Sequence record: OR061068
Reading direction: 5' to 3' (one strand)
DNA: 45,236 nt
From: Escherichia phage CR01
Shown here: positions 62 to 32,970 of the stretch, piece after piece
Layout of the letters: each line of letters opens with the position of its first letter
Position numbering within the stretch: position 1 is the stretch's first letter
The notes under the pieces: model-generated
Told to the model about the DNA's origin: nothing
What the model saw: the letters and a program-made list of their open reading frames with translations, nothing else
The model's database searches: none
Position numbers and translations under genes: made by a program

Positions 62-115
62 TTATCTCTCGTTTTGATGTAATGAATAGTACCCTATTAT
101 ATTGGGGTGCGCAAA
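62..115 (-). promoter_or_regulatory. conserved early promoter/operator cassette, copy driving the wrap-around gene
   Basis: Reverse complement TTTGCGCACCCCAATATAATAGGGTACTATTCATTACATCAAAACGAGAGATAAGGAATTT immediately precedes the ATG; contains TATAAT, palindrome AATAG-N4-CTATT and an AAGGA ribosome-binding site; near-identical copies at 9808-9870, 43428-43495 and 32905-32970. Confidence 0.5.
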
Positions 116-1009: not shown

Positions 1010-1711
1010 ATGAATCGTTTTTTACGTTATCCGTTCCAGGAAGAAGCTGGAGCAGAAGATAAAGCCGGTGGCGGTGACGCGCCGAAAATGTTCACAGCCG
1101 AAGAAGTTCAGGCGCTGATTGAGAAAGAAGTTGCCGGGCTTAAGGCCAATCAGGAAGCATTGCTGGCGGAGAAGAAAGAAGCCGCTCGCAAAGCAAAAGA
1201 GGCTGAAGAAGAACGGCAGCGCGCACACCAGGAGGCGTTAAAAGCCGCTGGTAAGATGGACGAGTTTGAAAAGACGATTCGTAGCCAGTATGACCCGGTG
1301 TTAGCCGAGAAAGATGGTCGCATCTCCAAAATGGCAGAGCGCATCCTCGGCAGCGAACGTAAAGCGGTGTTAGGCTCTTTCGCGGGGGACTTTATTACCC
1401 CGGAAGCAGTGGACATTCTTGCGCCGTTCGTCAAGACTGAGTTCGAAGGCGATGATGTGGTTACTAAGTTTGTCGGCGCAGACGGCAACGTAATCACGAC
1501 TGACCCGGAACAGTTCCGCAAATACCTGCGCGAACACAAAGCGTTTTCGCATTTGATTAAAGCAAATGCAGCTTCCGGCGGCGGGGCTTCCGGTAGCAAA
1601 GGCGGCGGGGCCGCACCAGCGTTTAAAGACATGAGTGAAGCGGAGCGTTTAGCTCTGTATAAATCGAACCCTGCCGAATTTGAGCGGCAACTTAAAGCCC
1701 TGAGGAAATAA
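1010..1711 (+). CDS. putative capsid scaffolding protein
   Basis: 233 aa, highly charged coiled-coil (EAARKAKEAEEERQRAHQEALKAAG), immediately upstream of the major capsid gene. Confidence 0.45.
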   Translation: MNRFLRYPFQEEAGAEDKAGGGDAPKMFTAEEVQALIEKEVAGLKANQEALLAEKKEAARKAKEAEEERQRAHQEALKAAGKMDEFEKTIRSQYDPVLAEKDGRISKMAERILGSERKAVLGSFAGDFITPEAVDILAPFVKTEFEGDDVVTKFVGADGNVITTDPEQFRKYLREHKAFSHLIKANAASGGGASGSKGGGAAPAFKDMSEAERLALYKSNPAEFERQLKALRK

Positions 1712-1713
1712 TA

Positions 1714-2762
1714 ATGGCAATTACTACTATCGGCGATATCGTAACTGGCAACATCCCGGTCCTGGCGTCTTACATGACCGAGGACCCGGTAGAAAAACCG
1801 CGTTCTTCCAGTCTGGTATTCTGACCCCGACTCCATACGCTGCCGAGATTGCCCGCGGCTCGTCCAACATCGCTAACATCCCTTTCTGGAAAGCGATTGA
1901 TACTTCTATTGAGCCTAACTACTCGAACGACGTATACCAGGACATCGCAACCCCGCGTAACGTGCAGACCGGCGAGATGATGGCGCGCGTTGCATACCTG
2001 AACGAAGGCTTCGGCCAGGCAGACCTGACTGTAGAACTGACCAGTCAGAATCCGCTGCAATCCGTAGCGTCCCGTCTGGATAACTTCTGGCAGCGCCAGG
2101 CGCAACGCCGTCTGATTGCTACCGCGCTCGGTCTGTACAACGACAACGTAGCCGCTACCGATGAATACCATACGCAGAACGATATGGTTATCGACGTGTC
2201 TGCTTCTCTGGGCTTCGACGCTGGCGCATTCATCGACGCTACCCAGACTATGGGCGATGCGCTGATGGGCAACGGCGGTGAAGTGCTGGGCGCTATCGCG
2301 ATGCACAGCTTCGTTTATGCGCAGGCGCGTAAGCAGCAGCTTATCGACTTCATCAAAGATGCTGACAACGACACCCTGTTCGCCACCTACCAGGGCTACC
2401 GCGTGATTGTTGACGACAGCATGACCGTAGTTGGCTCCGGCTCGAGCCGTAAGTTCATCTCCATCATCTTCGGCAACGGCGCTATCGGTTACGGTGAAGG
2501 TAATCCGTCCAACCCGCTGGAATACGAGCGCGAAGCATCTCGCGGTAACGGCGGCGGCGTTGAAACCCTGTGGACCCGTAAGACCTGGTTGCTGCACCCA
2601 CTGGGCTACAGCTTCACCAGTGCGGTAATCACCGGCAACGGCACCGAGACTGTAGCCCGCTCTGCTTCCTGGCAGGACCTGGCGAACGCCTCCAACTGGA
2701 ACCGTGTTGTTGAACGTAAGCACGTACCTATTGCCTTCCTGGTAACTGGTGTCGGTGCTTAA
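1714..2762 (+). CDS. major capsid protein, interrupted by an apparent frameshift near the N-terminus
   Basis: ATG at 1714 reads MAITTIGDIVTGNIPVLASYMTEDPVEK then hits a stop at 1822; the -1 frame is open from ~1794 to 2762 (track ORF 1962..2762); A5 run at 1793-1797; followed by a terminator. Confidence 0.6.
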
Positions 2763-2777
2763 GGTTAAGCTATAATC

Positions 2778-2802
2778 GAGAGGGACTTCGGTCCCTCTTT
2801 TC
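2778..2802 (+). terminator. rho-independent terminator after the capsid gene
   Basis: GAGAGGGAC-TTCG-GTCCCTCTTTTC hairpin plus T-run. Confidence 0.6.
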
Positions 2803-2823
2803 ATTTACTAAGAGGATTCCTAA

Positions 2824-3165
2824 ATGGCAGACGTATTGAAACGACGCACCACCGGCGTCTCCGCTGACGCCCCGGGTGCCAAGATTGACATGGTGACTAT
2901 TTCTCCTGCGTCTTTCTCGTCCGCGCTGGCGGCTACTACCTCCGTTACCGCAGGCGAAACCATGACACTGACCGTAACCGTAACTGGCGGTCTGGAGCCG
3001 TATTCCTACCAGTGGTATAAGAACAACAACGCCATCGCCGGGGCTACCGAGGCCACCTATGCTAAAGCGTCGACCACTACCGCCGATTCAGGCACGTATA
3101 AAGTGGTTGTTCACGATGCGTATGGTAATATTATCTCCAGCAGCACCGTAGCAACTGTGTCTTAA
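2824..3165 (+). CDS. Ig-like domain protein (candidate capsid decoration protein)
   Basis: 113 aa; motifs TLTVTVTGG, YQWYKNNNAI, DSGTYKVVV typical of Ig-like I-set/Big domains; sits directly after the capsid gene. Confidence 0.5.
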   Translation: MADVLKRRTTGVSADAPGAKIDMVTISPASFSSALAATTSVTAGETMTLTVTVTGGLEPYSYQWYKNNNAIAGATEATYAKASTTTADSGTYKVVVHDAYGNIISSSTVATVS

Positions 3166-3201
3166 TACAACGGCCCTTCGGGGCCGTAATAAGGAAAGGT
3201 C

Positions 3202-3381
3202 ATGGCAGATAATTATGTAATCCGCGAAAAGTACACCCACGTTGACGTTGTTGACGGTCAGGTAATGCCTGTTCGCGGTGTGGTAGAAGTGGACGAACTG
3301 GTTGCGACTCAACCGGACAACGAAGAAGCGCACAACAACGGCGGTGGTACTAAGCGTCGTCGCCGTAAGTCAGAGGAATAG
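3202..3381 (+). CDS. hypothetical small protein (59 aa), basic C-terminus
   Basis: ATG 3202 with ribosome-binding site AAGGAAAGG; ends GGGTKRRRRKSEE; below the ORF-track length cutoff. Confidence 0.35.
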   Translation: MADNYVIREKYTHVDVVDGQVMPVRGVVEVDELVATQPDNEEAHNNGGGTKRRRRKSEE

Positions 3382-3384
3382 TAC

Positions 3385-3537
3385 ATGAATATCGTGCGCC
3401 GCTTGCTCTGTACCCACAAATACCGAACGGTAAGAGTCGCGTATGGTGACGAGATAATTGGTAGAAATTACAAGCGATATTGCCAAGAGTGCACAAAATG
3501 CGGCGCAATCAGATACGTGGGTGGTGATAAATGTTAA
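3385..3537 (+). CDS. hypothetical small Cys-rich protein (50 aa, zinc-ribbon-like)
   Basis: CTHK...CQECTKC...C arrangement; start overlaps the preceding stop region. Confidence 0.3.
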   Translation: MNIVRRLLCTHKYRTVRVAYGDEIIGRNYKRYCQECTKCGAIRYVGGDKC

Positions 3538-4039
3538 TTGTAGAAACAGGTCAAATTGTAGATGGGGCCGATTCGTACATCTCGCTAGCTGACGCCCGCG
3601 CGTTAGCGGCTAATTATGGCCTTGAGTTACCTGCCGACGACCCCGCGGCGGAAGTAGCTCTGCGCAACGGTGCTACTTATGTCGGGCTTGCAGAACCACA
3701 GATGTGCGGCCGCCGTGTGTCGGCCGAACAGTCTCTTGCATACCCTCGCACGGGGTAACATTGAATGGCTTCCCTGTAGCTAACAACACCATTCCGAAAC
3801 AGGTGATTCTTGCGCAGGTAATCGCAGCCGCTACATATGGCTCCGGCACAGAAGTGCGGGCTAACTCGGACGGTCGCTCCGTGCAGACTGAGCGTGTCGA
3901 GGGTGCGGTCACAGTGACGTACTTCAACAACGGCAGCAGTGGCGCTACGACCGCGATTACCGCCGCTGACGACGCCTTACGCCCGTTACTGTGTGGTGGT
4001 CTTAACAATGGCTTCTCATTTAATGTGTACCGGGGTTAA
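3531..4039 (+). CDS. head-tail connector-like protein, frameshifted at G-run 3752-3755
   Basis: Track ORFs 3531..3758 and 3704..4039 join in one frame if one G is added to GGGG; N-terminus ISLADARALAANYGLELPADDPAAEV resembles gp6-like head-tail connector proteins. Confidence 0.4.
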
Positions 4040-4041
4040 AA

Positions 4042-4656
4042 ATGGCGAAGACTAAATCAGAGATGTTCACCCTCATCGGCGCGAATCTCCCCGATAACAC
4101 CAACGGTGCCATCACACCCGCGAAGCTACGCGAGGTAATGACGCAGATGGCGGACTCACCTATTTACGCCACTCCCGGTGTTAAAGAGGTTGAAGTTCTC
4201 CGCGCAGCGTCGACCGTGATACAAGTGCCCACCGCAACGAACACGGCGTTGCAGTTAACTTTTGGAGCTGCACAGGGTAGCGCATCCGACCCTGTAATGA
4301 TTAATGCCGCGGGGCTGGTTACGTTCAACACCGCGGGTAACTATGCCGTTCGCATCAAGTTACAGGCTGGGCGCACGGGGGCTAGCGGAACGTCTATCCT
4401 GTTATCACGCCTTCTTCTGAACGGCGCTCAGTACGGCTCGCCCGCAGCTACTAAACTGGTAAGCGCGGATACCACAATCCCGATTGAGTCTCGCGTCGTT
4501 ATTAACCCGACCGCAGGCCAGACGTTTGCCGTTCAGATTATGCGGGATAGCGCCGGGAGTAACTTCGGCGGCGTATACCCGCAAGCGGCTACGGTAACTG
4601 CATGGGGCACAGCACCATCTGCGCTACTGGTTATTTCGAGACTGGAGGCTGCGTAA
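4042..4656 (+). CDS. hypothetical virion structural protein
   Basis: 204 aa ORF in the head-tail gene block; Ala/Thr/Gly-rich. Confidence 0.35.
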   Translation: MAKTKSEMFTLIGANLPDNTNGAITPAKLREVMTQMADSPIYATPGVKEVEVLRAASTVIQVPTATNTALQLTFGAAQGSASDPVMINAAGLVTFNTAGNYAVRIKLQAGRTGASGTSILLSRLLLNGAQYGSPAATKLVSADTTIPIESRVVINPTAGQTFAVQIMRDSAGSNFGGVYPQAATVTAWGTAPSALLVISRLEAA

Positions 4657-4787
4657 TGCGAAAAATAATTAATATGTGGATTAACTCTGATTTTTTGTGG
4701 AAGTACGAATTTTTGGTATCAGTGTTTGCGCTGGTATCAACAACAGCTCTAATTATATTTTTAGCGGTTTGCGGGGAGTCAACATGA
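4656..4787 (+). CDS. small AT-rich membrane protein ORF (43 aa) inside the structural module
   Basis: ATG overlaps the upstream stop (TAATG) and its own stop overlaps the next ATG (ATGA); one hydrophobic helix FLVSVFALVSTTALIIFLAV; local AT content visibly higher than the flanks. Confidence 0.35.
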   Translation: MRKIINMWINSDFLWKYEFLVSVFALVSTTALIIFLAVCGEST

Positions 4788-5143
4788 GCACCGCTTTCAG
4801 CAAACGTATGCAGGGCGTGGGTACACGCCTGCTAACCAAATTCGGCAGCACAGTATCTCTGGTTCGCGCTGGCTCGAAAGTGTGGGATGAAGTTCTCGGT
4901 GAATGCGTCTGGTCCGCCGACGAAGTGTTGCCTTTGAAGGCCGTTCCGGTTCCGGTAAACGCGGGGCTGGTTAACGGTGCGACGATTCAGGCTGACGACA
5001 TGATTGTTAAAGCGGATTACAGCGTCGTTCCGAAGATGGAAGACAAGGTGCAATTCGGCGGCGAGCAATGGTCTGTCGTAGCTATCGAGAAGAAGATGGT
5101 TAACGATGATGTCGTGGCCTACTTTATCCAGGTGAGAAAATGA
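4784..5143 (+). CDS. putative head closure / head-tail joining protein
   Basis: 119 aa from ATG 4784 (the track ORF extends spuriously upstream to 4697); position between connector and neck genes. Confidence 0.4.
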   Translation: MSTAFSKRMQGVGTRLLTKFGSTVSLVRAGSKVWDEVLGECVWSADEVLPLKAVPVPVNAGLVNGATIQADDMIVKADYSVVPKMEDKVQFGGEQWSVVAIEKKMVNDDVVAYFIQVRK

Positions 5144-5640
5144 GTTTCGCGCTTGATGTCTCTAAGTTCGTCGAAAAGGCGAAGAAGAATCCCGAGAAGG
5201 TGATGCGCCAGGTGTCTATCAAGCTGTTTTCCGCTATCATAAAGGCGAGTCCGGTAGATACTGGTCGCTTTCGTATGAACTGGATGGCCTCTGGCGGTAC
5301 TCCTGCTTCCGGCACAAGTCAAGGTACTGACCCTAGCGGAGCTAACGCGATAGGCGCTATGGTTTCTACTGTGTCAGGCTTACCCGACTGGAGCGAGTTC
5401 ACCCTGACAAATAACCTGCCGTATGCGGAAGTTATAGAGTTTGGAGGTTACGCTACCGGCTTCCATGGCCCTAAGCGCCCTTCTAACTTAGGCTCTAAAT
5501 TTGTTGGCCCATTGAGGCCGAAAGCGCCCAGCAGAACAACCACAGACGGATATTCCCTTCAGGCTCCGCAAGGTGTTGTCCGGGTTAACGTTCAGCGATT
5601 CAATAAACTGCTCGAAGAAGAAGCGAGGAAGTATAAATAA
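5140..5640 (+). CDS. HK97 gp10-like neck / tail completion protein
   Basis: 166 aa containing a VDTGRFRMNW motif (DTGxLR-type motif of the HK97 gp10 family). Confidence 0.45.
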   Translation: MSFALDVSKFVEKAKKNPEKVMRQVSIKLFSAIIKASPVDTGRFRMNWMASGGTPASGTSQGTDPSGANAIGAMVSTVSGLPDWSEFTLTNNLPYAEVIEFGGYATGFHGPKRPSNLGSKFVGPLRPKAPSRTTTDGYSLQAPQGVVRVNVQRFNKLLEEEARKYK

Positions 5641-6053
5641 TGGGCTACTTTGAGGACTTAACCAAAGCGTTTGATGTGCCGCTGGTAGCCTTCGGAACAA
5701 CCAACGGCATCAAGGTGGCGCTTGAAAACATCGACGCGCCGACGTCAACCGATACACCGTATCTGGCGAGTTACATGTTGCTGGCAGATACGGAACAGGC
5801 TGACTTATTCTTCACCGAGCAACGTTCTGGTATTTATCAGGTCGACATTAACTACGCATCGGTGAAAGGTAGCGCGCCAATCAATAAAATGGCAGACTTA
5901 CTTAACACGGCGTTTAAAGCAGGTAAGTCATTTTCACGTAACGACATCTGCGCCGAGGTTCAATCGGTTAGCCTGGGGCCACTGATTGTAGAAAACGGAT
6001 GGGCCAAAAGACCATTGTCAATTAACTTTATCGCATTCACCAAGAGGCTGTGA
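5640..6053 (+). CDS. putative tail terminator protein
   Basis: 137 aa ORF immediately upstream of the major tail gene; start overlaps the preceding stop. Confidence 0.35.
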   Translation: MGYFEDLTKAFDVPLVAFGTTNGIKVALENIDAPTSTDTPYLASYMLLADTEQADLFFTEQRSGIYQVDINYASVKGSAPINKMADLLNTAFKAGKSFSRNDICAEVQSVSLGPLIVENGWAKRPLSINFIAFTKRL

Positions 6054-7222
6054 ATATGGCTACAACTCCTTTTAAGGGCGCGAATACCGCGCAATTCTAT
6101 GTGGCGGAAGTCACCCCGGGCGTAACACCGACTAACCCGGTCTGGTCACCGTTGCGTAACACTGGCGGTGTTCCTGCTATCACCCGCGACACGCTGACCT
6201 CCAACGAACTGGACGGCAGCCGTGAAACTACATCCATCCGCACCGGTAACAAACAGGTTAGCGGTGAATACGCGATCGAGCTTAGCTCGAAAAGCCAGGA
6301 TGACTGGCTGGCTGGTGCTTTAGGCTCTACGTGGCAATCCGGTGTTTCCCTGTCCAGTCTGTCGATTACCGTCGCACCCGCAGGCAAGACGTTCACACGC
6401 GCTACCGGCAGTTTTATCACTGACGGAGTTGGGGTAGGCGACCTGATTGCATTTACCGATTTAACAGGCGATAACGCAAAACCATTTATTGTTACTGCAG
6501 TAACGGCTACGGTTGTTACTGGTGCTGGCATCCAACACACCCTGACCACCGAGACAAAAACTAGTAAGGCTAAAACCGGCGACACGCTGGAAACCGGTAA
6601 CACGTGTAAGACGTTCTCTATCCTTACCTGGTACAAAGGCCAGTGCGGCGGTACTAACGCGTACACGTTAACCAAAGGCGTGGAAGTTTCTGGTTTTACC
6701 ATCGAACAGGCTGTTAACGCGATGGTAACTGGCAGCTTCCCATTCATCGGTCGCAGTCAGGAGATTCTCACTACGCCGCCGACCGGTTCCAACTTCTCAT
6801 CTGTTACTTTTGGTGATGAGCCGTTCTCCTCGGTTGACGTTTCTGTGTTCGACGGTTCTACGCCGTTGCGTTGTGATAGCCTGACCATCACCAACGATAA
6901 CAGCGCGTCGGCGCAGTTCGAACTCGGCAACACTAACGTAGCGTTTGTGGAGCGTAGCCGCGCGGCTAACACCTTCTCCATCTCCGGTAAGCTGTACGAC
7001 ATGGCGATGATTCAGAAGTTTATCAACGAACAGCAGGTAGAGATTAACTCTATTCTGGCGGGGGTAAACGGGGCTATGTCTTTCAGTTTAAAACGCGCAG
7101 AGCTTACGGCGGTCACACCAGAGATTGGCGGACCCGAGTCAATCACTCAGTCCATTGAAGGCCAGGCTACCGGCAACCAATACCAGTCGTCTATTGTCAT
7201 CCAGCGTATCACCTACCCATAA
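6050..7222 (+). CDS. putative major tail (tube) protein
   Basis: 390 aa Thr/Gly/Ser-rich protein positioned before the tail chaperone and tape measure genes; followed by a strong terminator. Confidence 0.5.
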   Translation: MNMATTPFKGANTAQFYVAEVTPGVTPTNPVWSPLRNTGGVPAITRDTLTSNELDGSRETTSIRTGNKQVSGEYAIELSSKSQDDWLAGALGSTWQSGVSLSSLSITVAPAGKTFTRATGSFITDGVGVGDLIAFTDLTGDNAKPFIVTAVTATVVTGAGIQHTLTTETKTSKAKTGDTLETGNTCKTFSILTWYKGQCGGTNAYTLTKGVEVSGFTIEQAVNAMVTGSFPFIGRSQEILTTPPTGSNFSSVTFGDEPFSSVDVSVFDGSTPLRCDSLTITNDNSASAQFELGNTNVAFVERSRAANTFSISGKLYDMAMIQKFINEQQVEINSILAGVNGAMSFSLKRAELTAVTPEIGGPESITQSIEGQATGNQYQSSIVIQRITYP

Positions 7223-7225
7223 AAC

Positions 7226-7252
7226 TAAGGCCCCGAAAGGGCCTTTTTCTTA
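7226..7252. terminator. bidirectional rho-independent terminator
   Basis: AAGGCCCCGAAAGGGCCTTTTTC: GC hairpin flanked by A-run upstream and T-run downstream; lies between convergent genes 6050..7222 (+) and 7250..7804 (-). Confidence 0.65.
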
Positions 7253-7804
7253 CAAACCTAATTTTAAAGCAATGTCTATAACGTTCGATTTAACATCACC
7301 TGGTATGATGTAGGTATCGTAATCTTTTACACCATCAACGCCATACAGATAACCACGGCTGTCCCCCTCAAATGTATAGCCTTCTCGGTGCAAGCGAACG
7401 ATTCTTACATCATGACCCGCGGCGACGATAGGGGCTACTTCACTGGCGAATCCACCGTCGGACACTACAAAAACTTCGTTGCCGTCTGGCAAGTTTTCAG
7501 CAAGATACTTACCGAAATAATCATCACCGAATACCGGTTTAATGAATTGCTCAGAAACGGCAATCATGAACTGACGACGGGACAACCCATTAAGAAAACC
7601 CTCTGGCTTTTCTTTCCGTGCCCGGTCGTCGTAGCCGTCGAGAAATTCGCGGTAAGCATCCGGGCCTAACGCTGCCAAAGCAATATCGAACATTGGATTC
7701 TTGAAACTGGTAGTTCCTTTCGCAAAGCCCATTTCTACCAGCGCCATAGCAAGTGTGTCTTTCCCGCAACCCGCCGGACCATTAAGAATAATTACCTTAG
7801 CCAT
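7250..7804 (-). CDS. P-loop kinase, dNMP kinase-like (T4 gp1-like) or polynucleotide kinase-like
   Basis: 184 aa; Walker A GPAGCGKDT at residues 8-16; downstream RRQFMIAV and VFVVSDGG...VRIVRLHREG segments resemble the T4 gp1 family as recalled; start overlaps the upstream stop (TAATG). Confidence 0.5.
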   Translation of the reverse strand: MAKVIILNGPAGCGKDTLAMALVEMGFAKGTTSFKNPMFDIALAALGPDAYREFLDGYDDRARKEKPEGFLNGLSRRQFMIAVSEQFIKPVFGDDYFGKYLAENLPDGNEVFVVSDGGFASEVAPIVAAGHDVRIVRLHREGYTFEGDSRGYLYGVDGVKDYDTYIIPGDVKSNVIDIALKLGL

Positions 7805-8289
7805 TATTTATCACTCCCGTGTGATTTTAAGTGTGTAGAGTTACCGTTACAGTCGTATCCAGTGACAGCGTGTGTGGTTATGCCGAGGCCTCGGAAATGC
7901 TTAATTACCGCCGGAGAATCATCGAATGCACACAAGATTCTCTCCAGCCCGATAGCACGCAACACCTCTTCTTTAATTGCGATGTCTTTTCTGTTGTCGT
8001 GTTTGCTGCGCATGATTAGCTGATAAAATTCGACGCGGTGGCGCTGCAACCACATTCTGGTTTCTTTTTCTGCATCATCACTACGGCCCGTTAAAATAAT
8101 AACGGCGTAGCGACGATTGAGGGCGTTACACAGTTCGATGTTATCTCTAATTGGTTCATCATCTTTGCACGCCATGTTAAAGGGCTTCCACGCCCACGTT
8201 TCGTTGTAGTTATCTTTCGGCAGCAGGTGCAAACGATGCGTACCATCAGCCAATGTCCCATCTAAATCGAAAATTACAATATCTTTCAT
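7804..8289 (-). CDS. HAD-superfamily phosphatase, T4 Pnk 3'-phosphatase-like
   Basis: 161 aa; motif I FDLDGTLA (DxDGT), motif II ILTGRSDD, RKD lysine motif, motif IV AFDDSP; order and spacing match the phosphatase domain of T4 polynucleotide kinase as recalled. Confidence 0.55.
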   Translation of the reverse strand: MKDIVIFDLDGTLADGTHRLHLLPKDNYNETWAWKPFNMACKDDEPIRDNIELCNALNRRYAVIILTGRSDDAEKETRMWLQRHRVEFYQLIMRSKHDNRKDIAIKEEVLRAIGLERILCAFDDSPAVIKHFRGLGITTHAVTGYDCNGNSTHLKSHGSDK

Positions 8290-9035
8290 CCCAGCATCTC
8301 CGGTGAAATAGTTAAACGTGCGACCTCGCCGTATTCGGCGCTATAAGTAATTACATTTGCACTACGGCCTGACATCCATCCGCCGCGGGAGGCGTAGGCA
8401 TCTTTAGCCGCCAGGGTGCGGTGTTGCTCAACAATCATGTTACGGCTTTCTACAATCTTTTGATGGTGGAGATGCCCGACATGTGCGTAACTGTACTCGC
8501 TTTCGCCAAATGCTTTTCTGAACTTAGCTATCATAATTGGCTCGACCACCTCAAACCGGCATTTATGCCCGTGTGTAAAGAACAGCGTCGTTTTGCCGTG
8601 TTGCACCATCTTGTAAACATCCGGCGACGTATCGACGAACACACGAGGCTCGTTGTCGTATAGCGTACTGAACATCTCAGCCAACCAAATCATACCTGAT
8701 TCGTCATGGTTCCCTTGCACGATAAGCAGGCGAACATTTTTATGTTTAACCAGAGCCATATCGACAACACGGCGGACCATACGAATCATGTAGCGGACCA
8801 GTTTCTGATAGCGCGTATCCGCGTCAAGAACATGACCACTCGCTGGCGTAACGGCATCCAGACTATCAAAGTGCGCGAAGTCACCAAGAAGGTTAATAAC
8901 CCCTGTTCCCGCATCTGGCGCTTTCTGAAACGCAGCATCAAACCACCGAGAGAACAGGTCTTCTGCAATCTTCATATCCCAGTCATCGCCGCTCTCGTCG
9001 GCCCATGCCAGCATACCGAGATGGAAATCAGACAC
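8286..9035 (-). CDS. calcineurin-like metallophosphoesterase (Mre11/SbcD-like), probably the C-terminal part of a fusion with the upstream HTH ORF
   Basis: Motifs SDFHLG (DxH), GDFAHFD, GNHDE, THGH, GHLHH in canonical order; annotated start is GTG with no beta-strand before the DxH motif, while the upstream frame is open. Confidence 0.6.
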   Translation of the reverse strand: MSDFHLGMLAWADESGDDWDMKIAEDLFSRWFDAAFQKAPDAGTGVINLLGDFAHFDSLDAVTPASGHVLDADTRYQKLVRYMIRMVRRVVDMALVKHKNVRLLIVQGNHDESGMIWLAEMFSTLYDNEPRVFVDTSPDVYKMVQHGKTTLFFTHGHKCRFEVVEPIMIAKFRKAFGESEYSYAHVGHLHHQKIVESRNMIVEQHRTLAAKDAYASRGGWMSGRSANVITYSAEYGEVARLTISPEMLG

Positions 9036-9412
9036 AGTGTAAAGGTTGAGTAGCTTGTCGTCTCGTTTGGTGCGAACGGCTTTAACAGGAGCAACGGGGT
9101 AATCTCCGACTTCATGCCCTCGATTACGGCCTTCATTAACTCGACCTGACGTTCCGCATCGGTGTCGGTCTTAACCCATTGCAGTTTAGTGTTGCCTAAC
9201 TCGTCCACAAGTGACGATGTTCCTTTAATCTTGTAGCCATCTGGCACAAGGTGGCTAACGTCCCGCCCGTGGCCTACGCCTTTCTTAGCCAGCTTCGCTT
9301 TACGGATGCGAATAACGCGGTCTGAGATGCCGTATTTACGGGCGATGTCGATATTCTTCATACCGGCGTTCAATTCTTCCTGTAACTGTTCGTCGGTTAT
9401 TTTCTTCCGGGC
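8972..9412 (-). CDS. HTH DNA-binding protein (N-terminal part of a probable HTH-metallophosphoesterase fusion)
   Basis: ATG 9412 with ribosome-binding site GAGGAAG; HTH-like DEQLQEELNAGMKNIDIARKYGISDRVIRIRKAK; the C-terminal 20 residues look non-native; adding one C at C-run ~9096-9099 joins this frame to the phosphoesterase. Confidence 0.45.
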   Translation of the reverse strand, partial: ARKKITDEQLQEELNAGMKNIDIARKYGISDRVIRIRKAKLAKKGVGHGRDVSHLVPDGYKIKGTSSLVDELGNTKLQWVKTDTDAERQVELMKAVIEGMKSEITPLLLLKPFAPNETTSYSTFTLCLISISVCWHGPTRAAMTGI

Positions 9413-9480
9413 CATGCTTACTTCCTCGTGTTTAGGATTTGTCCTATTTAACCACAGTGCATTCATTTAAATAAAGGCGA

Positions 9481-9807
9481 CTATTTACTTTCCGCGCCTA
9501 TCGCCCACCCGGTCATCACCATTTGCAGGCGGGTGGCTGTCAGTAGGCTGTAAAACGCGTCTCCGTTTTTCTCTACCGAACGTATTACAGAGTATGTTAC
9601 GGCTTGCGGAGGCAGGCCCGATTTACCAACCCCTACGGCAGCCTCACACTCGCGAACGGTAGAGTCCTTAAATGCCTTTACAATAGTAGGGTCGGCTTTA
9701 TCGAGCACACCAGAAGTCATAAGAACAGATTCACTAAATACCTGTTCGCACGGGGACCCAAAAGCAGCAAAAGACATAAACCCCAGAGCTAATACTAATT
9801 TACGCAT
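9481..9807 (-). CDS. small secreted/periplasmic protein (108 aa), first gene of the moron operon
   Basis: N-terminal signal peptide MRKLVLALGFMSFAAFG; gene sits immediately downstream of a conserved early promoter cassette. Confidence 0.5.
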   Translation of the reverse strand: MRKLVLALGFMSFAAFGSPCEQVFSESVLMTSGVLDKADPTIVKAFKDSTVRECEAAVGVGKSGLPPQAVTYSVIRSVEKNGDAFYSLLTATRLQMVMTGWAIGAESK

Positions 9808-9870
9808 AATTATTTCCTCAGTAAGTTACAGGTGAATAGTACCCTATTATATTGGGGTGCGCAAGTAGTG
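9808..9870 (-). promoter_or_regulatory. conserved early promoter/operator cassette driving the moron operon
   Basis: Reverse complement CTTGCGCACCCCAATATAATAGGGTACTATTCACC...GAGGAAATAATT-ATG; near-identical to the copies at 62-115 and 43428-43495. Confidence 0.5.
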
Positions 9871-9971
9871 TGTTAGAATAAGTTTGCGCCTAGTGTCGCA
9901 CACGAAAAGCGGGTGGTTCCCGTCTGGCGCGTCAACCTTAACTTGTAACCTCTTAACCAAAGGATTAAATA

Positions 9972-10388
9972 ATGAAACTCTCTGATTTTTATTTTGCGGA
10001 CCGCCATGCTGCTGGCACTAAAATGCCCATCCTTCTGCCTAGCGGTAAAGATTCCGGTGAATGGTTGCAAGTCATCGGCCCTGATTGTGACGCTGGCGTT
10101 CGTGCTGGCCGTGCCTATACAACGGCAATTCGACGCCTTACGGAAGAACTTGCGCCGTTAGATAAAGAGTGCGAGGCACTGAATAACTGGGCGCGCTATA
10201 ACGATGAGAAGGGCTGGCGGGTGATGGACTTGAACAAGCAGCTTGCCGTTGAAATCGTCACCGGTTGGTCGTTCGACGAACCTTTCAGCAAAGAGGCACT
10301 GGCTAACCTGTTCGACCAGTACAGTGGGCTGGCGGAGGCCGTAGTTAAGCATCACACCGACAGTCGCGAGAAACTCTCGGAAAAGTAA
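9972..10388 (+). CDS. tail assembly chaperone (lambda G-like)
   Basis: 138 aa ORF immediately upstream of the tape measure gene; ends at a GAAAAG slip site with an open -1 frame downstream. Confidence 0.55.
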   Translation: MKLSDFYFADRHAAGTKMPILLPSGKDSGEWLQVIGPDCDAGVRAGRAYTTAIRRLTEELAPLDKECEALNNWARYNDEKGWRVMDLNKQLAVEIVTGWSFDEPFSKEALANLFDQYSGLAEAVVKHHTDSREKLSEK

Positions 10389-10750
10389 AAGCGCTGTATG
10401 AATTTGCGCAATGGTGCTTTGTCGACCGCCACAAACGTAAGCAATTCGACGACATAGCGGCAGGCCACCAGGCGGCTTTGATTGCAATGGGCGTGATTAA
10501 AGAACCGCAGATGAAAGAAGCGACGGGGCCTGAATGCCCCGTTTCTCTTATCGACGTGTTCGAGAAATACCGCGCCATTAAATTCCTACAGCGCGAAACA
10601 GATGATACTATCGTCATAATCCCGCGCGATGCGCTCAAATGGCAAGATTTGGTAGCGTTTCGTGATGTCGCCGGTTACGGCATAAGTTTGTTCGAAGCCG
10701 AGGTTATCATGGGCTTAGACGGAATATTTGAGGGCAGAGAAGATGGCTGA
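10379..10750 (+). CDS. T-extension of the tail assembly chaperone (G-T product via -1 frameshift)
   Basis: The -1 frame is open from 10349 through 10750 with no start codon until 10478; overlaps the G stop; conserved G/GT arrangement before tape measure genes. Confidence 0.45.
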   Translation, partial: GKVKALYEFAQWCFVDRHKRKQFDDIAAGHQAALIAMGVIKEPQMKEATGPECPVSLIDVFEKYRAIKFLQRETDDTIVIIPRDALKWQDLVAFRDVAGYGISLFEAEVIMGLDGIFEGREDG

Positions 10751-13054
10751 TACGGCTTCCCTAATTGCCAGAGTAAAAACAGAAGGCGCCGACGTAGCCG
10801 CCAAACAGCTTGACGCTATGGCGGCATCCGCAGACCGGGCGGATACCGCGGTAAACAAGCTGACTCCGGATGTCAATAAAGTTAACACAGCTACCTCTAA
10901 AGCAGCCTCTGACGGTTTCGCTAAGTTCCGTAACGCCGCCGGGCAGGTGGGCTTCCAGGTACAGGACATGGTTGTCCAGTTGCAGTCCGGCACGTCTGCA
11001 TTCGTAGCAATCGGGCAACAAGGCTCGCAGCTTGCAGGTGCTTTCGGCCCCGGTGGCGCGGTGCTCGGGGCTGTAATTGCTCTTGCGTCTGCTGTTGGCG
11101 GCGTCCTGTACAAATCGCTAACCGAAGCCGAAGGTAGTTCAAAAGACCTCGAAACCGCACAGAAACAGTTAAAAGATACTTTCCAGCAAACGGCATCTGG
11201 CTCTCTCGAACTGACAGACGGCCTCATCCAGCTTACCCAAATAAGCCGAGAAGCGGCAGAGACTCAGCTTGCTCTGGCTAAGGCTAACGCGGACCTTATC
11301 GCGCAGCAAACAGCTAAAGCTGTTCGTGAGGACGCAGAATCATGGGAAACGTGGAAAGCCTCCACGGCGTCGGCGATTAGCCAGTACGATGCACTGGTCT
11401 CTAAGGGTGCGGATGTAGGCGACACGTTAGAAAAACTAGGCGGCACTTACGAGGGTAACATCGTAGGCGTCAACATGCTGGCGCAGAATATCGCGGAGCT
11501 TAGCAGTAAGTTCGGGGTTAACCGTGACCAGGCGCTGGAGATGATAGCGGCGCAGAGCGCGTTTAACAAAGAGCCAACCGCGGAGAATGCCCGCCGCATC
11601 GCCGATGTGTTTACCGACTGGCTGGGTAACACAAAACAGTTGAACCCGGAGCTTATCCGCCTCACCGATAATGCCAACAAGAACGCCACGGCACTGGAAA
11701 ACGCAGAGAAGTCAGCAAACGCGGCGGCAGAGGCCCAAAAGAATCTTGGTCGTAACGTCAACTCAACCACGCAGAGATTCCAGGAACAGAACGAAGCTAT
11801 CGTCAAGAATCAGCAAATTGCCATCTTAAGCGACCGTGAGCGCATCAGGGCGCAAGCTGAGATGGATAAACAAGCGTTCGCTAAACGTGAAGCTGTCACC
11901 AAAGAACAGATCGCCGCGTATAATGCCGCTCGTGACACGGAAGCACAGCAAGACATCGCCCGCATCGACGCTACCGAAAAAGCGAAGGCAGACCGTGAGG
12001 CTAAATCGAACGAGAAACGTCTGGCGGCGCAGGCCAAACGTGAAGAAACGGCGGCACAACGCCAGAAGAAAGCTGCGGAAGATTTCCTCGCTACGGTTGA
12101 CCGTACAACCGGAGATGAAATTTCTCGCATCACGGCGGCCGAAGAGCAGAAACTGGCGAAACTTGAAGAGTTCAACCGCGCCGGAACGATAAGCCAGCAG
12201 CAGTACGAAAACGCCAAAACTCAGATTATGCTCACAGCTGAGCAGGCCAGACAGGAAGAACTGGATAAGAAAAGAAAAGAGCAGCAGGAAAAGCAGCAGA
12301 AAGGCGAGGACTTCATGGCGCAGATTATGGGTCAGAATGCTGCCGAGCTTGAGCTTCTTGACATCCAGGAACAGCAAAAGCTGGCGGTCGCGGATAAGTA
12401 CCGAGAACAGGGGCTTATTAGCGAGAAGCAGTATCAGGCCGCGCTTAACGCCATCAACGAGCAGTACGCCACGAAGCGTGCCGACGCAACGGCAACCGCC
12501 TTCGGTAACATGGCTTCAAACATCGGTTCGGCTTTGGGGAGGCTTCCGGCGCGTACAAGGCATTCGCTATCGTACAGGCCACTATAGCCACATACACAGC
12601 AGCTATTGAGGCTTATAAGTCAACGGCCGCTATCCCTGTAGTTGGCCCGTTCCTGGCCCCCGTAGCCGCTGCCGCTGCCGTTGGGGCGGGTATGGCGCAG
12701 GTTTCCGCTATCCGGTCCGCGCGTGAACAGGGCGGACAGTTATCCGCAGGGCAGGCTTCCACCATCGCTGAACGCGGTAAACCCGAAGTTATCATGCCCG
12801 CTGGCGCATCGCGTGTGCGCACCGCGCAGCAGATGAAAGAAATTATGGGGCAAAACGGGTCTTCTTCCGGCCCGTCTAATGTTACTATCGTAAACAACAC
12901 GAGTTCTCAAATCGGCAACGTATCCACTGAGCAAGATGATGAAGGCCGTCTACGCATCATCATCGAAGAGCAAGTGGCCGCCTCTTTGCAGAACAGTAAC
13001 AGTAAGATTAGCAAGGCCCGCAAGGCCACAAGAAACGCGCCGGGGTTTAAATAA
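10743..13054 (+). CDS. tail tape measure protein, frameshifted at G-run ~12536-12539
   Basis: Long Ala/Gln/Glu-rich coiled-coil ORF 10728..12587; the C-terminal frame 12692..13054 joins if one G is added to GGGG; fused reading gives a hydrophobic Ala/Gly-rich segment. Confidence 0.7.
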
Positions 13055-14444
13055 TGAGCGACTTATATTTCCCACGTAGCCTTAAGCCTATTGTGTCGAA
13101 AGGCTACTCAATGACCAGACGCAACAACGTCTGGAGTGTCGATTTAGCCGGTGGCGGAGTGCGTCAAGGCCGTGACACGTATTATGATGTGTTCCCAATA
13201 AGCGTAACCCTGATTACATCCGCAATGGGGCGGCAGGCGTTTCTGTCGTTCCTCGAGAAAGTCGATGGTGGCGCGTCAAGTTTCTGGATGGCGCACGACT
13301 TCGGCATGGGTATTGAGGATTATCAAGTCACCATTACATCCACCGTCGCCGAGTCCACCGAAGACGGGATTAACTGGACAATTACTTTCACGGCAACCGC
13401 TGAGAAATCACCGTTCCAGGACCTTGAGAACCAGTGTCTGATTAACAATCTGCCAGATTTGTATGGCTGTTATGGTGATTGCCTGGGCAGTTTCCTGAAA
13501 ATATACGCGAACTATGAAACGACGTTCCCGCGTATCTGGAGTGACGAAGGCCCCGCCGGTTATCCGCCGATTAACCTTCTGGCGTCGACTCTTGATAGCC
13601 GCATTGTGTATGACGGGCCACAGGTTTACTACATCAACAGAAATGGCAATCTTGTGCAGTCCGCCGCCAATGAATGGCCTCTTACGTTCATTGATGGTGT
13701 TGCGGTTGGGCGAGTTCCTCCTGAAAATGCTGCAGAAAATATAATAATTGAGTCTTCAAACATAACTGATGCGTCGTGGGATAAGCAGAGGACAACAGTG
13801 AGCTATGACGGAAGCCTGGTTTTATCTTTCGCCGTTACCCCAGATGAAAACACGGGCGTCCACACCATTAATCAGACAGTTCATGCGCAAATTCTAGAAG
13901 GTGAAAAATACACATTCAGTGTTTTTTTAAGGCTAATGGGTATAATTTTGCCAGGCTCCGCGCGGCAAATCAGGATACTACGCACATCTCTTCCGCGATA
14001 GTAGACCTCACATCCGGGACTATTGTCGATGGCGAAGCATATTCCACAATAACATCTATAGGAGGCGGATGGTATCGAGTTACTGAAACTATAACGGCAC
14101 CACCCGGCGGGTTTGACGGCCTCAATCTGTCGATGTGGATTTACGAAACAGCAACAATATCATCGTTTCCAGGGGATGGGGTTAGTGGCATTCTCGCATC
14201 CACTCCACAAATAGAAAAAACAGAGTTCTCCACGTCCCCAATAGTAACTGAATCGTCATCAGTAACACGCCCATCCGCAGGTGCAAAAGTAGCAATGAAT
14301 GGCGCAATAAGCATCGACATAACCTATTCCGACGGCTCTGTGGTAAACGTTCAGGCTGTTGACGGTTATGCCGCCATCCCCCAAGCGGATTCTTCGTGGG
14401 GCAGTAAATACATCACTCGTATCGACTTTAATGTGGGCGGTTAA
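13054..14444 (+). CDS. minor tail protein (distal tail protein-like), frameshifted at T-run 13922-13928
   Basis: Track ORFs 13054..14001 and 14133..14444 join in one frame when one T is added to the T7 run. Confidence 0.4.
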
Positions 14445-14447
14445 TTT

Positions 14448-14963
14448 ATGAGTCAGGAATCAGTAGAAGCAGCCTATCGCCGTAAGCTGGCCTCAAACCC
14501 CGACGGCGAGATGGACTACATCACGTTGCAAATCAGCCACCCGTTGCTGTCAAAGACGTACTATCTTGTGCGCGGGTTGCAGGAGCTTACAGCAACGCTG
14601 GAGACAGGAGAAACAATCACGTTCGAACCAACCCCGATGGAAGCGTCGGGTGCTTCGAACAATAGTGATATGGACCAGACGACGACGTTTACTCTACCTG
14701 ATATTCTCAATCAACTGGATGATGAGATGGATAAAATCCCGATGAGTAACACCGAGTTGCCGAAGTTTATTTTTCGCCGTTACGTCAGCACAGACCTGTC
14801 TTATCCAGCTGACGGCCCTGTCGTGTATGAGTTGCAGGCTATAAACCAAGAGAAGGGTGAGTTCTCTGCGGATGTCGGTACACCTATGCTGAACCAACGA
14901 AGCACTGGTATACTGATGACACCTAAAGAGATACCGTTATTACGCGGCCTGTTGACCACATGA
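14448..14963 (+). CDS. minor tail protein
   Basis: 171 aa ORF in the lambda-like tail tip gene order. Confidence 0.35.
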   Translation: MSQESVEAAYRRKLASNPDGEMDYITLQISHPLLSKTYYLVRGLQELTATLETGETITFEPTPMEASGASNNSDMDQTTTFTLPDILNQLDDEMDKIPMSNTELPKFIFRRYVSTDLSYPADGPVVYELQAINQEKGEFSADVGTPMLNQRSTGILMTPKEIPLLRGLLTT

Positions 14964-15325
14964 ATATTAACGACTACACGGGCATACCTTACGACTTTCG
15001 CAAACGCAATTGCTGGCATCACGTGCGCATTGTCCGCGCGGATGCCGGGTTAGAAACACCGGCGTTCGACGTTACAAGCCCAACGGCAATTAACGAAGCG
15101 TTTGACGAAGGCCACCGTGACACGAAGGGGCTTACGAAGATTGATAAGCCTGAAAACTTCTGCGCGGTGCTTATGGGGTATCGACGCGGCGGTCGTATCG
15201 TGTGGCATGCGGGGGTTTACTTCGACGGGATGGTGAGTCATTGCGAGCTTGCTTCACGTCAGGTGCGGCTTGACAGGCTGGCGGACCTCAGAGACACGTA
15301 CACGGAGATTGAATTTTGGCGATAA
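14960..15325 (+). CDS. tail assembly protein, NlpC/P60-like (lambda K C-terminal domain-like)
   Basis: 121 aa; Cys-His motif NCWHHV and later His/Cys (WHAGVYFDGMVSHCE); synteny with the K position. Confidence 0.4.
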   Translation: MNINDYTGIPYDFRKRNCWHHVRIVRADAGLETPAFDVTSPTAINEAFDEGHRDTKGLTKIDKPENFCAVLMGYRRGGRIVWHAGVYFDGMVSHCELASRQVRLDRLADLRDTYTEIEFWR

Positions 15326-32509: not shown

Positions 32510-32970
32510 TACATTGCGAATAATGGGAAATCAAACATAATCGCACCTATTGACATTAAGAAAATCTTCGTTTAAGGTGCTTCTATATCTTAGTTACTTT
32601 GATTCCTGTTCACCTTGTAAAACCCGCCGAAAACGAGCGCCCAACGCGAAGTGTTAGGCGGCAGTTTACTGAACATTCGAATTATCGTAACTTTCCTTCC
32701 TAAGTATCTCCGGTTGCCCTGGGCAAGCTCTATTCCCATCGGCGGAATATATCTTAAGTATCTGATTTTCTTAAAGTGCCGTAGATTCGCAACCGTAAAA
32801 ATGTAACGATTATTGGGCAGGCTTAGGGCCTGCCCTTTAGTTACCAAGTAATAAGAATAAAGGCACAACCCTACCTGAAGAATCACAACGGCAACGTAAC
32901 TATTCTCTTGCACACCCCAACATAATAGGTTACTATTCACTTATCGAAACGAGACATAAGGAATTTAGCA
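32510..32970. promoter_or_regulatory. 460-bp non-coding control region with divergent promoters and a terminator-like hairpin (candidate origin / ncRNA locus)
   Basis: No convincing ORF; TTGACA at 32552 with -10-like element; hairpin GGGCAGGC-TTAG-GGCCTGCCC plus T-tract at ~32816-32842; conserved cassette at 32905-32970. Confidence 0.45.

What the first reader, a model, noticed from the sequence alone, without database searches (positions are those of the whole stretch)
7250..9870. Early-promoter-driven minus-strand operon inside the tail gene block: candidate nucleic-acid end-processing module
Between the major tail gene and the tail chaperone, where lambda-like phages have nothing, sits a co-directional, translationally coupled operon on the opposite strand, bounded by a conserved early promoter cassette (9808-9870) and a bidirectional terminator (7226-7252). 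It encodes a signal-peptide protein, an HTH protein that most likely continues into a Mre11/SbcD-like metallophosphoesterase (all five phosphoesterase motifs present), a HAD phosphatase with the T4 Pnk 3'-phosphatase motif pattern, and a P-loop kinase. A binuclear phosphoesterase plus a Pnk-type phosphatase plus a kinase is the enzyme set used for healing broken RNA or DNA ends (T4 Pnk, bacterial Pnkp), yet no ligase is present and the parts are separate and HTH-tethered. I do not recognise this arrangement as a described system. Plausible roles are repair of host nuclease damage (anti-defence), or host DNA breakdown with nucleotide-pool remodelling.
Basis: partly seen in the sequence, partly recalled or inferred. 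Interest (0 to 1): 0.8.

Follow-up and report, generated by a model that had tools for sequence, protein, structure and literature searches.

The report
Phage nuclease, phosphatase, dNMP-kinase gene cassette
This is a widespread, already catalogued phage gene cassette (a DNA-binding phosphoesterase, a small phosphatase and a deoxynucleotide kinase) that most likely breaks down DNA and recycles its nucleotides for the phage, not a new system for repairing broken RNA or DNA ends.

Summary
On the minus strand, 7250-9807 encodes a signal-peptide protein, an HTH-metallophosphoesterase (MPE), a HAD phosphatase and a P-loop kinase. A 27-nt promoter-like cassette (four copies in the window) and a bidirectional terminator bound the block. 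The HTH/MPE split is a 1-nt homopolymer deletion; relatives have one 376-aa ORF.

The block is not new. About 270 phage records match it. The same MPE-HAD-kinase order occurs in Drexlerviridae (KLPN1, Rao1) and Autographiviridae (Era103 group), and has been noted in print.

The MPE is a core gene that usually occurs without the other two, whereas HAD and kinase travel together.

Best reading: DNA breakdown plus dNMP handling, like T5 A1/A2-Dmp-Dnk. The MPE and HAD functions remain untested.

The parts
9838..9864 (-). Conserved 27-nt promoter-like cassette TTGCGCACCCCAATATAATAGGGTACT. A possible reading is TTGCGC-N17-TACTAT; it also holds an internal TATAAT and the dyad ACCC..GGGT.
   Evidence: Four copies in the window against 0 expected. 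The aligned copies are each followed by an ATG about 30 nt downstream. The cassette is conserved upstream of the operon in 22 related loci. Timing and transcription start were not measured. The generic sigma-70 scan does not call it.
9481..9807 (-). First gene: a 108-aa protein with an N-terminal signal-peptide-like segment. It occupies a variable accessory slot.
   Evidence: ORF. PHROG 14165, unknown function; no Pfam, NCBIfam or PADLOC hit. Many relatives carry a 63-aa Imm_superinfect protein in this slot.
8286..9415 (-). HTH-metallophosphoesterase gene (PHROG 704, labelled 'DNA repair exonuclease'). In this window a 1-nt deletion at about 9095 splits it into ORFs 8972-9466 and 8286-9035.
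   Evidence: K1H has one 376-aa ORF. The deletion lies in a C5 run. PHROG 704 at 6.8e-167 over the full length. AF2 pLDDT 93. Nearest solved folds are T. maritima Mre11, PolD DP1 and Rv0805. The five MPE motifs are invariant. The HTH is GerE-like but below threshold.
7804..8289 (-). HAD phosphatase of 161 aa with motifs DLDGT, ILTGR, K106 and FDDS. The core resembles the T4 Pnk phosphatase domain and the cap insertion resembles T5 Dmp.
   Evidence: Pfam HAD_PNKP 68 bits. PHROG 415 at 2.5e-65, the PHROG that also holds T5 Dmp at 3.6e-57. hhalign against T4 Pnk gives 97.9%, E 4e-13; against T5 Dmp 74%, E 3e-5. PDB sequence hits are Pnkp1 and T4 Pnk.
7250..7804 (-). dNMP kinase (DNK) of 184 aa with P-loop GPAGCGKDT (Lys15).
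7227..7245 (.). GC-rich hairpin with T-runs on both sides, acting as a bidirectional intrinsic terminator between the convergent major tail gene and the kinase gene.
   Evidence: Called on both strands by the terminator scan.

Best explanation
The block is a composite accessory locus of a Kagunavirus-type phage. It is transcribed against the tail genes from a promoter-like cassette that recurs in the genome.

Its constant element is an HTH-tethered binuclear metallophosphoesterase. I infer that it is a DNA-directed nuclease that attacks DNA, most plausibly the host chromosome, and releases dNMPs.

Downstream lies a mobile two-gene unit.
- A dNMP kinase converts dAMP, dGMP, dCMP and dTMP to dNDPs, and host NDK then makes dNTPs for phage replication. 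This step is shown for a 51%-identical homologue.
- A HAD phosphatase of the Pnk-phosphatase/T5-Dmp family is inferred to dephosphorylate nucleotides. Candidates are 3'-phosphorylated or unwanted/modified dNMPs, or 3'-P ends that block exonucleolysis.

The enzyme logic parallels T5's A1 (MPE, host DNA degradation) + A2 (DNA binding) + Dmp (HAD dNMPase) + Dnk. Here it is compacted into one operon and geared to salvage.

The first gene, a secreted 108-aa protein, is an unrelated exchangeable moron.
For: Kinase:
- It is 51% identical to R1DNK, which phosphorylates the four dNMPs in vitro. Deleting it lowers dATP in Rao1 infection.
- It has the GKD P-loop, and 1DEK is the top fold match.
- Rao1 carries the same MPE-HAD-DNK trio, gp56-58.

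HAD:
- It belongs to the same PHROG as T5 Dmp.
- It shares with Dmp a cap insertion that T4 Pnk lacks.
- HAD and DNK are linked in 63 of 80 kinase loci.
- A stand-alone homologue is coupled to nrdB in a T4-like phage that also has a complete pseT.
- The Kongming study reports frequent co-occurrence of Dmp homologues with DNKs.

MPE:
- The catalytic motifs are invariant.
- The nearest folds are Mre11 and the PolD DP1 exonuclease.
- It has an N-terminal HTH.

Precedents for phage MPEs that degrade host DNA:
- T5 A1.
- Mycobacteriophage Gp48.

Other points:
- Rao1 infection raises dAMP 2-3 fold.
- In phiEa100 the trio follows the gene-6-type exonuclease and endonuclease VII.
Against: - No activity of the MPE or the HAD has been measured.
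- The MPE fold also resembles the cNMP phosphodiesterase Rv0805. Pfam scores are just below cut-off.
- Homology to T5 A1 is not demonstrated (hhalign 19%, 20 columns). There is none to A2.
- The MPE occurs without HAD and DNK in most loci, including half of the close relatives, so a shared pathway is not required.
- The HAD is closer in sequence to the T4 Pnk 3'-phosphatase domain than to T5 Dmp.
- Co-translated dNMP kinase and dNMP phosphatase would oppose each other unless their specificities differ.
- Rao1 remains sensitive to Kongming although it has gp57.
- Host DNA degradation by Kagunavirus phages has not been documented here.
Confidence: 0.55

Rival explanations
1. Unlinked functions. 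The HTH-MPE is a core phage gene with its own role in phage DNA transactions, such as replication restart, recombination, end processing for packaging, or HTH-mediated regulation. The HAD-DNK pair is an independent nucleotide-supply accessory that inserted downstream of it.
For: - The MPE occurs alone in most of 80 loci and in half of the close Guernseyvirinae.
- It is persistent in 508 of 522 Drexlerviridae, while PNK and dNMP kinase are optional.
- It lies next to terS in Dhillonvirus and next to the lysis genes in Warwickvirus.
- In 38 of 80 kinase loci, HAD and DNK have no MPE within 6 kb.
- In relatives, the slots on both sides of the MPE gene hold unrelated genes such as Rha/ANT and Imm.
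Against: - The same MPE-HAD-DNK order recurs in three phage families, and all three genes show similar divergence.
- K1H already encodes a separate exonuclease, a Holliday junction resolvase and helicases.
- No partner such as Rad50/SbcC is present.
Confidence: 0.2
2. Counter-defence. The HAD, possibly with the MPE, removes nucleotide danger signals or their precursors that the phage's own nuclease and kinase create. Candidates are dAMP, m6dAMP and dIMP/dITP. This would blunt Kongming-, Metis- or PUA-Cal-HAD-type immunity, as T5 Dmp does.
For: - T5 Dmp is a HAD of the same PHROG and is a proven anti-Kongming factor. Dmp homologues co-occur with DNKs.
- R1DNK-type kinases trigger Kongming.
- Host HAD MisB dephosphorylates m6dAMP.
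- Metis and PUA-Cal-HAD sense m6dAMP released by phage-driven chromosome degradation.
- The HAD is translationally coupled to the kinase.
Against: - Rao1 carries the orthologous HAD gp57 and is still restricted by Kongming, and supplying T5 Dmp in trans protects it.
- Substrate specificity is unknown.
- There is no PADLOC or anti-defence family hit.
- The HTH on the MPE argues for DNA rather than small signals.
Confidence: 0.15
3. One reading: a split Pnkp-like end-healing set. The MPE would act as a 2',3'-cyclic phosphodiesterase or trimming nuclease, the HAD as a 3'-phosphatase and the kinase as a 5'-kinase. It would repair RNA or DNA cut by host nucleases, with sealing by a host or neighbouring ligase.
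For: - The HAD is a bona fide relative of the T4 Pnk phosphatase domain and of Pnkp1.
- Bacterial Pnkp uses an MPE domain (established knowledge).
- In Era103-group phages a DNA ligase gene follows the trio directly.
Against: - There is no ligase in K1H or the window lineage.
- T7-like phages place the kinase beside ligase even without a HAD. From my own knowledge, T7 also keeps its dNMP kinase gp1.7 near ligase 1.3.
- A T4-like phage keeps this HAD in addition to a full PseT.
Confidence: 0.1

Closest known systems
Escherichia phage Rao1 gp56-gp57-gp58 (R1DNK), and the same cassette in Klebsiella phage KLPN1 and Erwinia phage phiEa100/Era103
   Same: Same three genes in the same order and orientation. 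The kinase is 51% identical and the HAD 51% identical to the Rao1 proteins, and the MPE about 45%. Catalytic Lys15 is conserved.
   Different: The genomic position differs. Here the trio sits inside the tail module on the opposite strand; in Drexlerviridae it lies before the lysis genes; in phiEa100 it lies between endonuclease VII and DNA ligase. Only gp58 has been studied experimentally.
Phage T5 pre-early/early set: A1 (predicted metallophosphatase, host DNA degradation), A2 (DNA-binding), Dmp (5'-dNMP phosphatase), Dnk
   Same: Same enzyme classes: MPE, a DNA-binding module, a HAD phosphatase and a dNMP kinase. Dmp and the window HAD share PHROG 415 and a cap insertion. A1 is necessary and sufficient for chromosome digestion.
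   Different: The HTH is fused to the MPE here. Homology to A1 is unproven and there is none to A2. T5 discards host nucleotides and separates Dmp and Dnk in time, whereas here the HAD and kinase are co-translated.
T4 polynucleotide kinase/phosphatase (PseT) and bacterial Pnkp1/Pnkp-Hen1 RNA repair
   Same: The HAD domain is homologous to the Pnk phosphatase domain (Pfam HAD_PNKP; hhalign 97.9%). Bacterial Pnkp also contains an MPE module.
   Different: There is no Pnk-type kinase domain, ligase, adenylyltransferase or Hen1. The HAD carries an extra cap insertion that T4 Pnk lacks.
T4 gp1 deoxynucleoside monophosphate kinase (PDB 1DEK)
   Different: Only about 20% identity. The window protein is shorter (184 against 241 aa). 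R1DNK also accepts dAMP and dCMP; from my own knowledge, T4 gp1 is selective for dGMP, dTMP and hm-dCMP.
Mre11/SbcD nucleases and phage MPE nucleases (mycobacteriophage A10ZJ24 Gp48)
   Same: Binuclear MPE fold with all five motifs and a GDxxH motif II. T. maritima Mre11 is the top Foldseek hit. Gp48 is an early-expressed phage MPE that degrades host DNA.
   Different: No Rad50/SbcC partner and no evident capping domain, but an N-terminal HTH plus a beta-hairpin/helix module. Mycobacteriophages are not among the listed organisms in a tblastn at E 1e-3, so the relation to Gp48 appears to be at superfamily level only.
Bacterial Metis (MisA MPE + MisB HAD) and PUA-Cal-HAD defence systems
   Same: Pairing of a calcineurin-like phosphoesterase with a HAD phosphatase acting around dNMP/dNTP pools.
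   Different: Those are host immune systems with PUA sensor domains and a HAD_2-type phosphatase. The window proteins have no PADLOC hit. Homology was not tested because the sequences were not at hand.

Membership tests
T4-type Pnkp end-healing enzyme set | 5'-OH polynucleotide kinase domain of Pnk type (P-loop GxGKS/T with a catalytic Asp and an open acceptor channel) | tested here: not met
T4-type Pnkp end-healing enzyme set | HAD (DxDxT) 3'-phosphatase domain homologous to the Pnk C-terminal domain | tested here: met
   Pfam HAD_PNKP 68.2 bits against a cut-off of 27.6. hhalign gives 97.9%, E 4e-13, over 134 columns. PDB hits are 4xrp and 5uj0.
T4-type Pnkp end-healing enzyme set | A partner ligase (Rnl1/Rnl2 or DNA ligase) in the same genome | tested here: not met
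   No ligase is annotated in K1H. A ligase is adjacent only in Era103-group podophages.
T4-type Pnkp end-healing enzyme set | Activity on 3'-P / 5'-OH polynucleotide ends | not testable with these tools
   This needs enzyme assays.
Bacterial Pnkp-Hen1 RNA repair | Kinase-MPE-adenylyltransferase polypeptide with a Hen1 methyltransferase partner | tested here: not met
   The proteins are separate. Pfam, NCBIfam and PHROG show no adenylyltransferase or Hen1 domain in the operon.
Phage dNMP kinase family (T4 gp1 / R1DNK; PHROG 139) | Profile membership and the GKD P-loop with the catalytic Lys | tested here: met
   PHROG 139 at 4.1e-45. G12, G14, K15 and D16 are invariant in 42 homologues. Mutating R1DNK Lys15 abolishes its function.
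Phage dNMP kinase family (T4 gp1 / R1DNK; PHROG 139) | Whole-protein fold match to T4 dNMP kinase | tested here: met
Phage dNMP kinase family (T4 gp1 / R1DNK; PHROG 139) | Close homology to a biochemically characterised member | tested here: met
   51% identity over 172 aa, E 1e-63, to Rao1 gp58. Its dNMP kinase activity is described in bioRxiv 10.1101/2024.12.20.629578.
T5 Dmp-type HAD dNMP phosphatases (PHROG 415) | Same profile family and shared cap insertion after motif I | tested here: met
   The window HAD scores 2.5e-65 and T5 Dmp 3.6e-57 in PHROG 415. hhalign gives 74%, E 2.8e-5, over 85 columns that include HR..P..N.AC..D.
T5 Dmp-type HAD dNMP phosphatases (PHROG 415) | 5'-dNMP phosphatase activity | not testable with these tools
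   Pairwise similarity to Dmp is weak. The HAD is closer in sequence to T4 Pnk.
Mre11/SbcD nucleases | Five metallophosphoesterase motifs, including GDxxH and GNHD | tested here: met
   D130, H132, G178, D179, N236, H237, H282, G314 and H317 are invariant. H182, H284 and H315 are nearly invariant.
Mre11/SbcD nucleases | Profile or structure-level placement in the Mre11/SbcD family rather than in other MPE families | tested here: inconclusive
   Foldseek ranks TmMre11 first (E 3.8e-9), but PolD DP1, Rv0805, YfcE and LpxH follow closely. The profile search against PDB sequences gives E 0.28. Pfam Metallophos scores 20.9 against a cut-off of 21.5.
Mre11/SbcD nucleases | Rad50/SbcC ATPase partner | tested here: not met
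   No such gene is annotated in K1H or beside the MPE in other loci.
T5 A1 host-DNA-degrading metallophosphatase | Detectable homology to A1 | tested here: inconclusive
   hhalign gives 19% probability over 20 columns around NHD..S.WL. A1 is in a different PHROG, 1745.

The most novel reading that the evidence does not exclude
The HTH-metallophosphoesterase (PHROG 704) is present in about 2000 sequenced phages and is core to T1-like, Dhillon-like and Jersey/K1G-like phages. It may be their long-unidentified host-chromosome nuclease.

In this reading, the attached HAD is a selective dNMP phosphatase. It would strip danger-signal nucleotides (dAMP, m6dAMP, dIMP) from the salvage stream that the adjacent dNMP kinase feeds. 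The phage could then recycle host DNA while limiting activation of Kongming-, Metis- or PUA-Cal-HAD-type immunity.
Probability: 0.15. Interest if true: 0.6.

Novelty: already known. Interest (0 to 1): 0.25.

Why it matters
As a discovery it matters little. The cassette has been in GenBank since the K1G/K1H genomes. It is found in hundreds of phages of three families, and its kinase has been characterised as the trigger of Kongming immunity.

Three residual points have value.
- The PHROG 415 label 'polynucleotide kinase' covers a family that contains the T5 dNMP phosphatase, so thousands of phage annotations suggesting RNA/DNA end repair are probably wrong.
- The HTH-MPE is a very widespread core phage gene with no tested function. 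It is a reasonable candidate for the host-DNA nuclease of T1-like and related phages.
- Phage nucleotide-salvage enzymes are now known to create the signals that several defence systems sense. The HAD-kinase pairing is therefore worth testing against those systems.

Tried and rejected
- Sequence searches of the kinase, alone and as a 42-sequence profile, against PDB sequences returned only P-loop matches. The question was settled by structure prediction with fold search, and by finding Rao1 gp58.
- The MPE profile against PDB sequences gave only marginal hits: GerE E 0.05, TmMre11 E 0.28.
- NCBIfam and PADLOC gave nothing useful for any of the four proteins.
It was redone with 10 sequences.
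- I looked for homology of the HTH-MPE to T5 A1 and A2. It is weak for A1 and absent for A2, so T5 is cited as a functional analogue only.
- I considered the HTH/MPE split as a programmed frameshift or a pseudogene. I rejected this because the window has 16 single-base deletions against M01, including breaks in the tape-measure gene.
- I considered the ligase adjacent to the trio in Era103-type phages as support for end healing. I rejected it as decisive, because the kinase sits beside ligase in T7-like contigs even without the HAD or MPE.
- Rfam and tRNA scans of the window found nothing.
- Literature searches on Kagunavirus/Guernseyvirinae found no functional study of this block.


Full report
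**What the window is.** The region 7100-10000 matches 270 phage records. The best is Escherichia phage M01 (99.4%), followed by the K1G/K1H group of Kagunavirus (Guernseyvirinae) at about 90%. In the RefSeq record of K1H the same block lies between the major tail gene and the tail assembly chaperone, on the opposite strand. Its genes are annotated as ATP-binding protein, polynucleotide kinase, DNA repair exonuclease and a hypothetical protein.

**Checking the observation.** The minus-strand ORFs are at the stated places.
- The MPE and HAD genes overlap as ATGA, and the HAD and kinase genes as TAATG. The first gene is about 65 nt from the MPE start, so only three genes are translationally coupled.
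- The HTH ORF (8972-9466) and the MPE ORF (8286-9035) form one gene. K1H has a single 376-aa ORF. The window lacks one C of a C5 run that M01 retains.
- Over 15 kb the window has 16 single-base deletions relative to M01. Some break the tape-measure gene, which no viable phage can lack. The split is therefore a sequence error.
- A 27-nt element at 9838-9864 recurs four times in the window (none expected by chance). Each copy lies about 30 nt before an ATG. It sits upstream of the operon in 22 related loci. It looks like a promoter, but its timing is unknown and the generic sigma-70 scan does not call it.
- The hairpin at 7227-7245 is called as a terminator on both strands.

**The kinase.**
- PHROG places it in family 139, dNMP kinase (4e-45).
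- The profile aligns with T4 gp1 over 72 columns beyond the P-loop, but with T4 Pnk only over the 24-residue P-loop. The gp1 sequence was verified.
- Decisively, the protein is 51% identical (E 1e-63) to gp58 of phage Rao1. That enzyme, R1DNK, phosphorylates dAMP, dGMP, dCMP and dTMP in vitro. Its function depends on Lys15, it contributes to dATP levels during infection, and it is the trigger of the Kongming defence system (bioRxiv 10.1101/2024.12.20.629578).
- Rao1 carries the same trio, gp56 HTH-MPE, gp57 HAD and gp58 kinase.

**The HAD phosphatase.**
- It passes Pfam's threshold for HAD_PNKP. It aligns with the whole phosphatase domain of T4 Pnk (97.9%, E 4e-13).
- Its PHROG, 415, is labelled 'polynucleotide kinase' but also contains T5 Dmp at full length (3.6e-57). 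Dmp is the experimentally established 5'-dNMP phosphatase.
- The family has a conserved insertion after the DxDGT motif (HR..LP..W..FN.A..D). Dmp shares it, and it is gapped in T4 Pnk.
- A T4-like Krischvirus keeps a 37%-identical stand-alone copy coupled to nrdB, although it also has a complete pseT and an RNA ligase.
- The substrate therefore cannot be read from homology. A nucleotide substrate is at least as likely as a polynucleotide end.

**The HTH-metallophosphoesterase.**
- It matches PHROG 704 over the full length.
- The family is large: 4607 cluster representatives and 2050 phage records.
- All five catalytic motifs are invariant in 77 diverse members.
- The model (pLDDT 93) shows a three-helix HTH, a beta-hairpin plus helix, and then the phosphoesterase domain.
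- The nearest solved folds are T. maritima Mre11, the PolD DP1 exonuclease, Rv0805 and M. jannaschii Mre11, with modest E-values. A nuclease is plausible but not proven.
- There is no Rad50/SbcC partner.

**Is the trio a unit?**
- Among 80 IMG/VR loci centred on the MPE, most lack HAD and kinase. About half of the close Guernseyvirinae lack them too. There the downstream slot holds a Rha/ANT protein or a 76-aa ORF, and the upstream slot an Imm_superinfect protein.
- The MPE stands alone before terS in Dhillonvirus and before the lysis genes in Warwickvirus.
- Among 80 kinase-centred loci, 25 have MPE-HAD-kinase in this order. Another 38 have HAD and kinase but no MPE within 6 kb. In 12 T7-like loci the kinase is directly followed by DNA ligase.
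- The trio in the same order occurs in Webervirus KLPN1 and in Erwinia phage phiEa100.
- A 2026 paper on Drexlerviridae reports the 'DNA repair exonuclease' as persistent in 508 of 522 genomes. It names PNK and dNMP kinase as the genes most often found right after it, and reads them as nucleotide supply (PMC13164509).

**Mechanism.** I read the locus as a core DNA-directed phosphoesterase plus a mobile HAD-kinase pair for handling dNMPs.
- The step dNMP to dNDP is shown by homology to R1DNK.
- The nuclease role of the MPE is inferred from its fold, its HTH and two precedents. In T5 the predicted metallophosphatase A1 is necessary and sufficient for host chromosome digestion. It acts beside the DNA-binding A2 and the HAD Dmp (bioRxiv 10.64898/2026.04.02.716235). 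Mycobacteriophage Gp48 is an early MPE that degrades host DNA (PMC12287305).
- Direct homology to A1 or A2 was not demonstrated.
- The role of the HAD is open. It could clean 3'-phosphates or remove particular dNMPs.
- Host systems now known to sense dAMP-derived or m6dAMP signals from chromosome degradation make a counter-defence role conceivable (Kongming, Metis, PUA-Cal-HAD). Against this, Rao1, which has the orthologous HAD, is still restricted by Kongming.

**Verdict.**
- The kinase is firmly a dNMP kinase.
- The HAD falls in the family of a 5'-deoxynucleotidase.
- The block is common at this position.
- The MPE does not fall in a cNMP phosphodiesterase family, so that criterion is not met.

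The open points are the untested functions of the MPE and the HAD.

Noticed in passing
window 1107-15996 (e.g. 1792, 9095, 12535, 13059, 13550, 13559): There are 16 single-base deletions relative to phage M01, several in homopolymer runs. They split the HTH-MPE gene and the tape-measure gene. In turn, M01 has three extra bases around window 8550-8576 that break its own MPE gene. Both records look error-prone.
   Followed up: yes
PHROG 415; T5 dmp at L170:124-858; window 7804-8289: T5 Dmp is a proven 5'-dNMP phosphatase. It belongs at full length to the PHROG labelled 'polynucleotide kinase', which also holds the window HAD. The label probably mis-annotates stand-alone HADs in more than 2000 phage genomes.
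   Followed up: partly
window 88-114, 9838-9864, 32908-32934, 43465-43491: A 27-nt cassette contains an internal perfect TATAAT and the dyad ACCC..GGGT. Three of the four copies also share the downstream leader and ribosome-binding site. It could be a regulated promoter or operator set. The binding protein is unknown, and the HTH of the MPE is one candidate.
   Followed up: partly
L016:5770-5961 and 7128-7358; L018:7472-8143: In close relatives the slots flanking the MPE gene hold other genes. An Imm_superinfect protein lies upstream. Downstream, a Rha/ANT antirepressor-like protein or a 76-aa ORF replaces the HAD and kinase. This marks an accessory-gene hotspot inside the tail module.
   Followed up: partly
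L171:3998-4474 (Krischvirus PHB13): A stand-alone HAD, 37% identical to the window HAD, overlaps the stop codon of nrdB. The same T4-like phage also encodes a full pseT and an RNA ligase nearby.
   Followed up: no
L147, L148, L153-L155, L157, L159-L161, L164, L166, L167: In about 44-kb T7-like contigs, the dNMP kinase homologue is directly followed by an ATP-dependent DNA ligase gene, often with overlapping stop and start codons. Nine of these 12 loci have no HAD or MPE.
   Followed up: no
window 9972-10388 and 10478-10750: The tail assembly chaperone appears as two ORFs. K1H annotates the pair as a joined (programmed frameshift) product. This is the usual G/GT arrangement and is unrelated to the finding.
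   Followed up: no
whole window: No tRNA genes, and no Rfam family at gathering threshold.
   Followed up: yes
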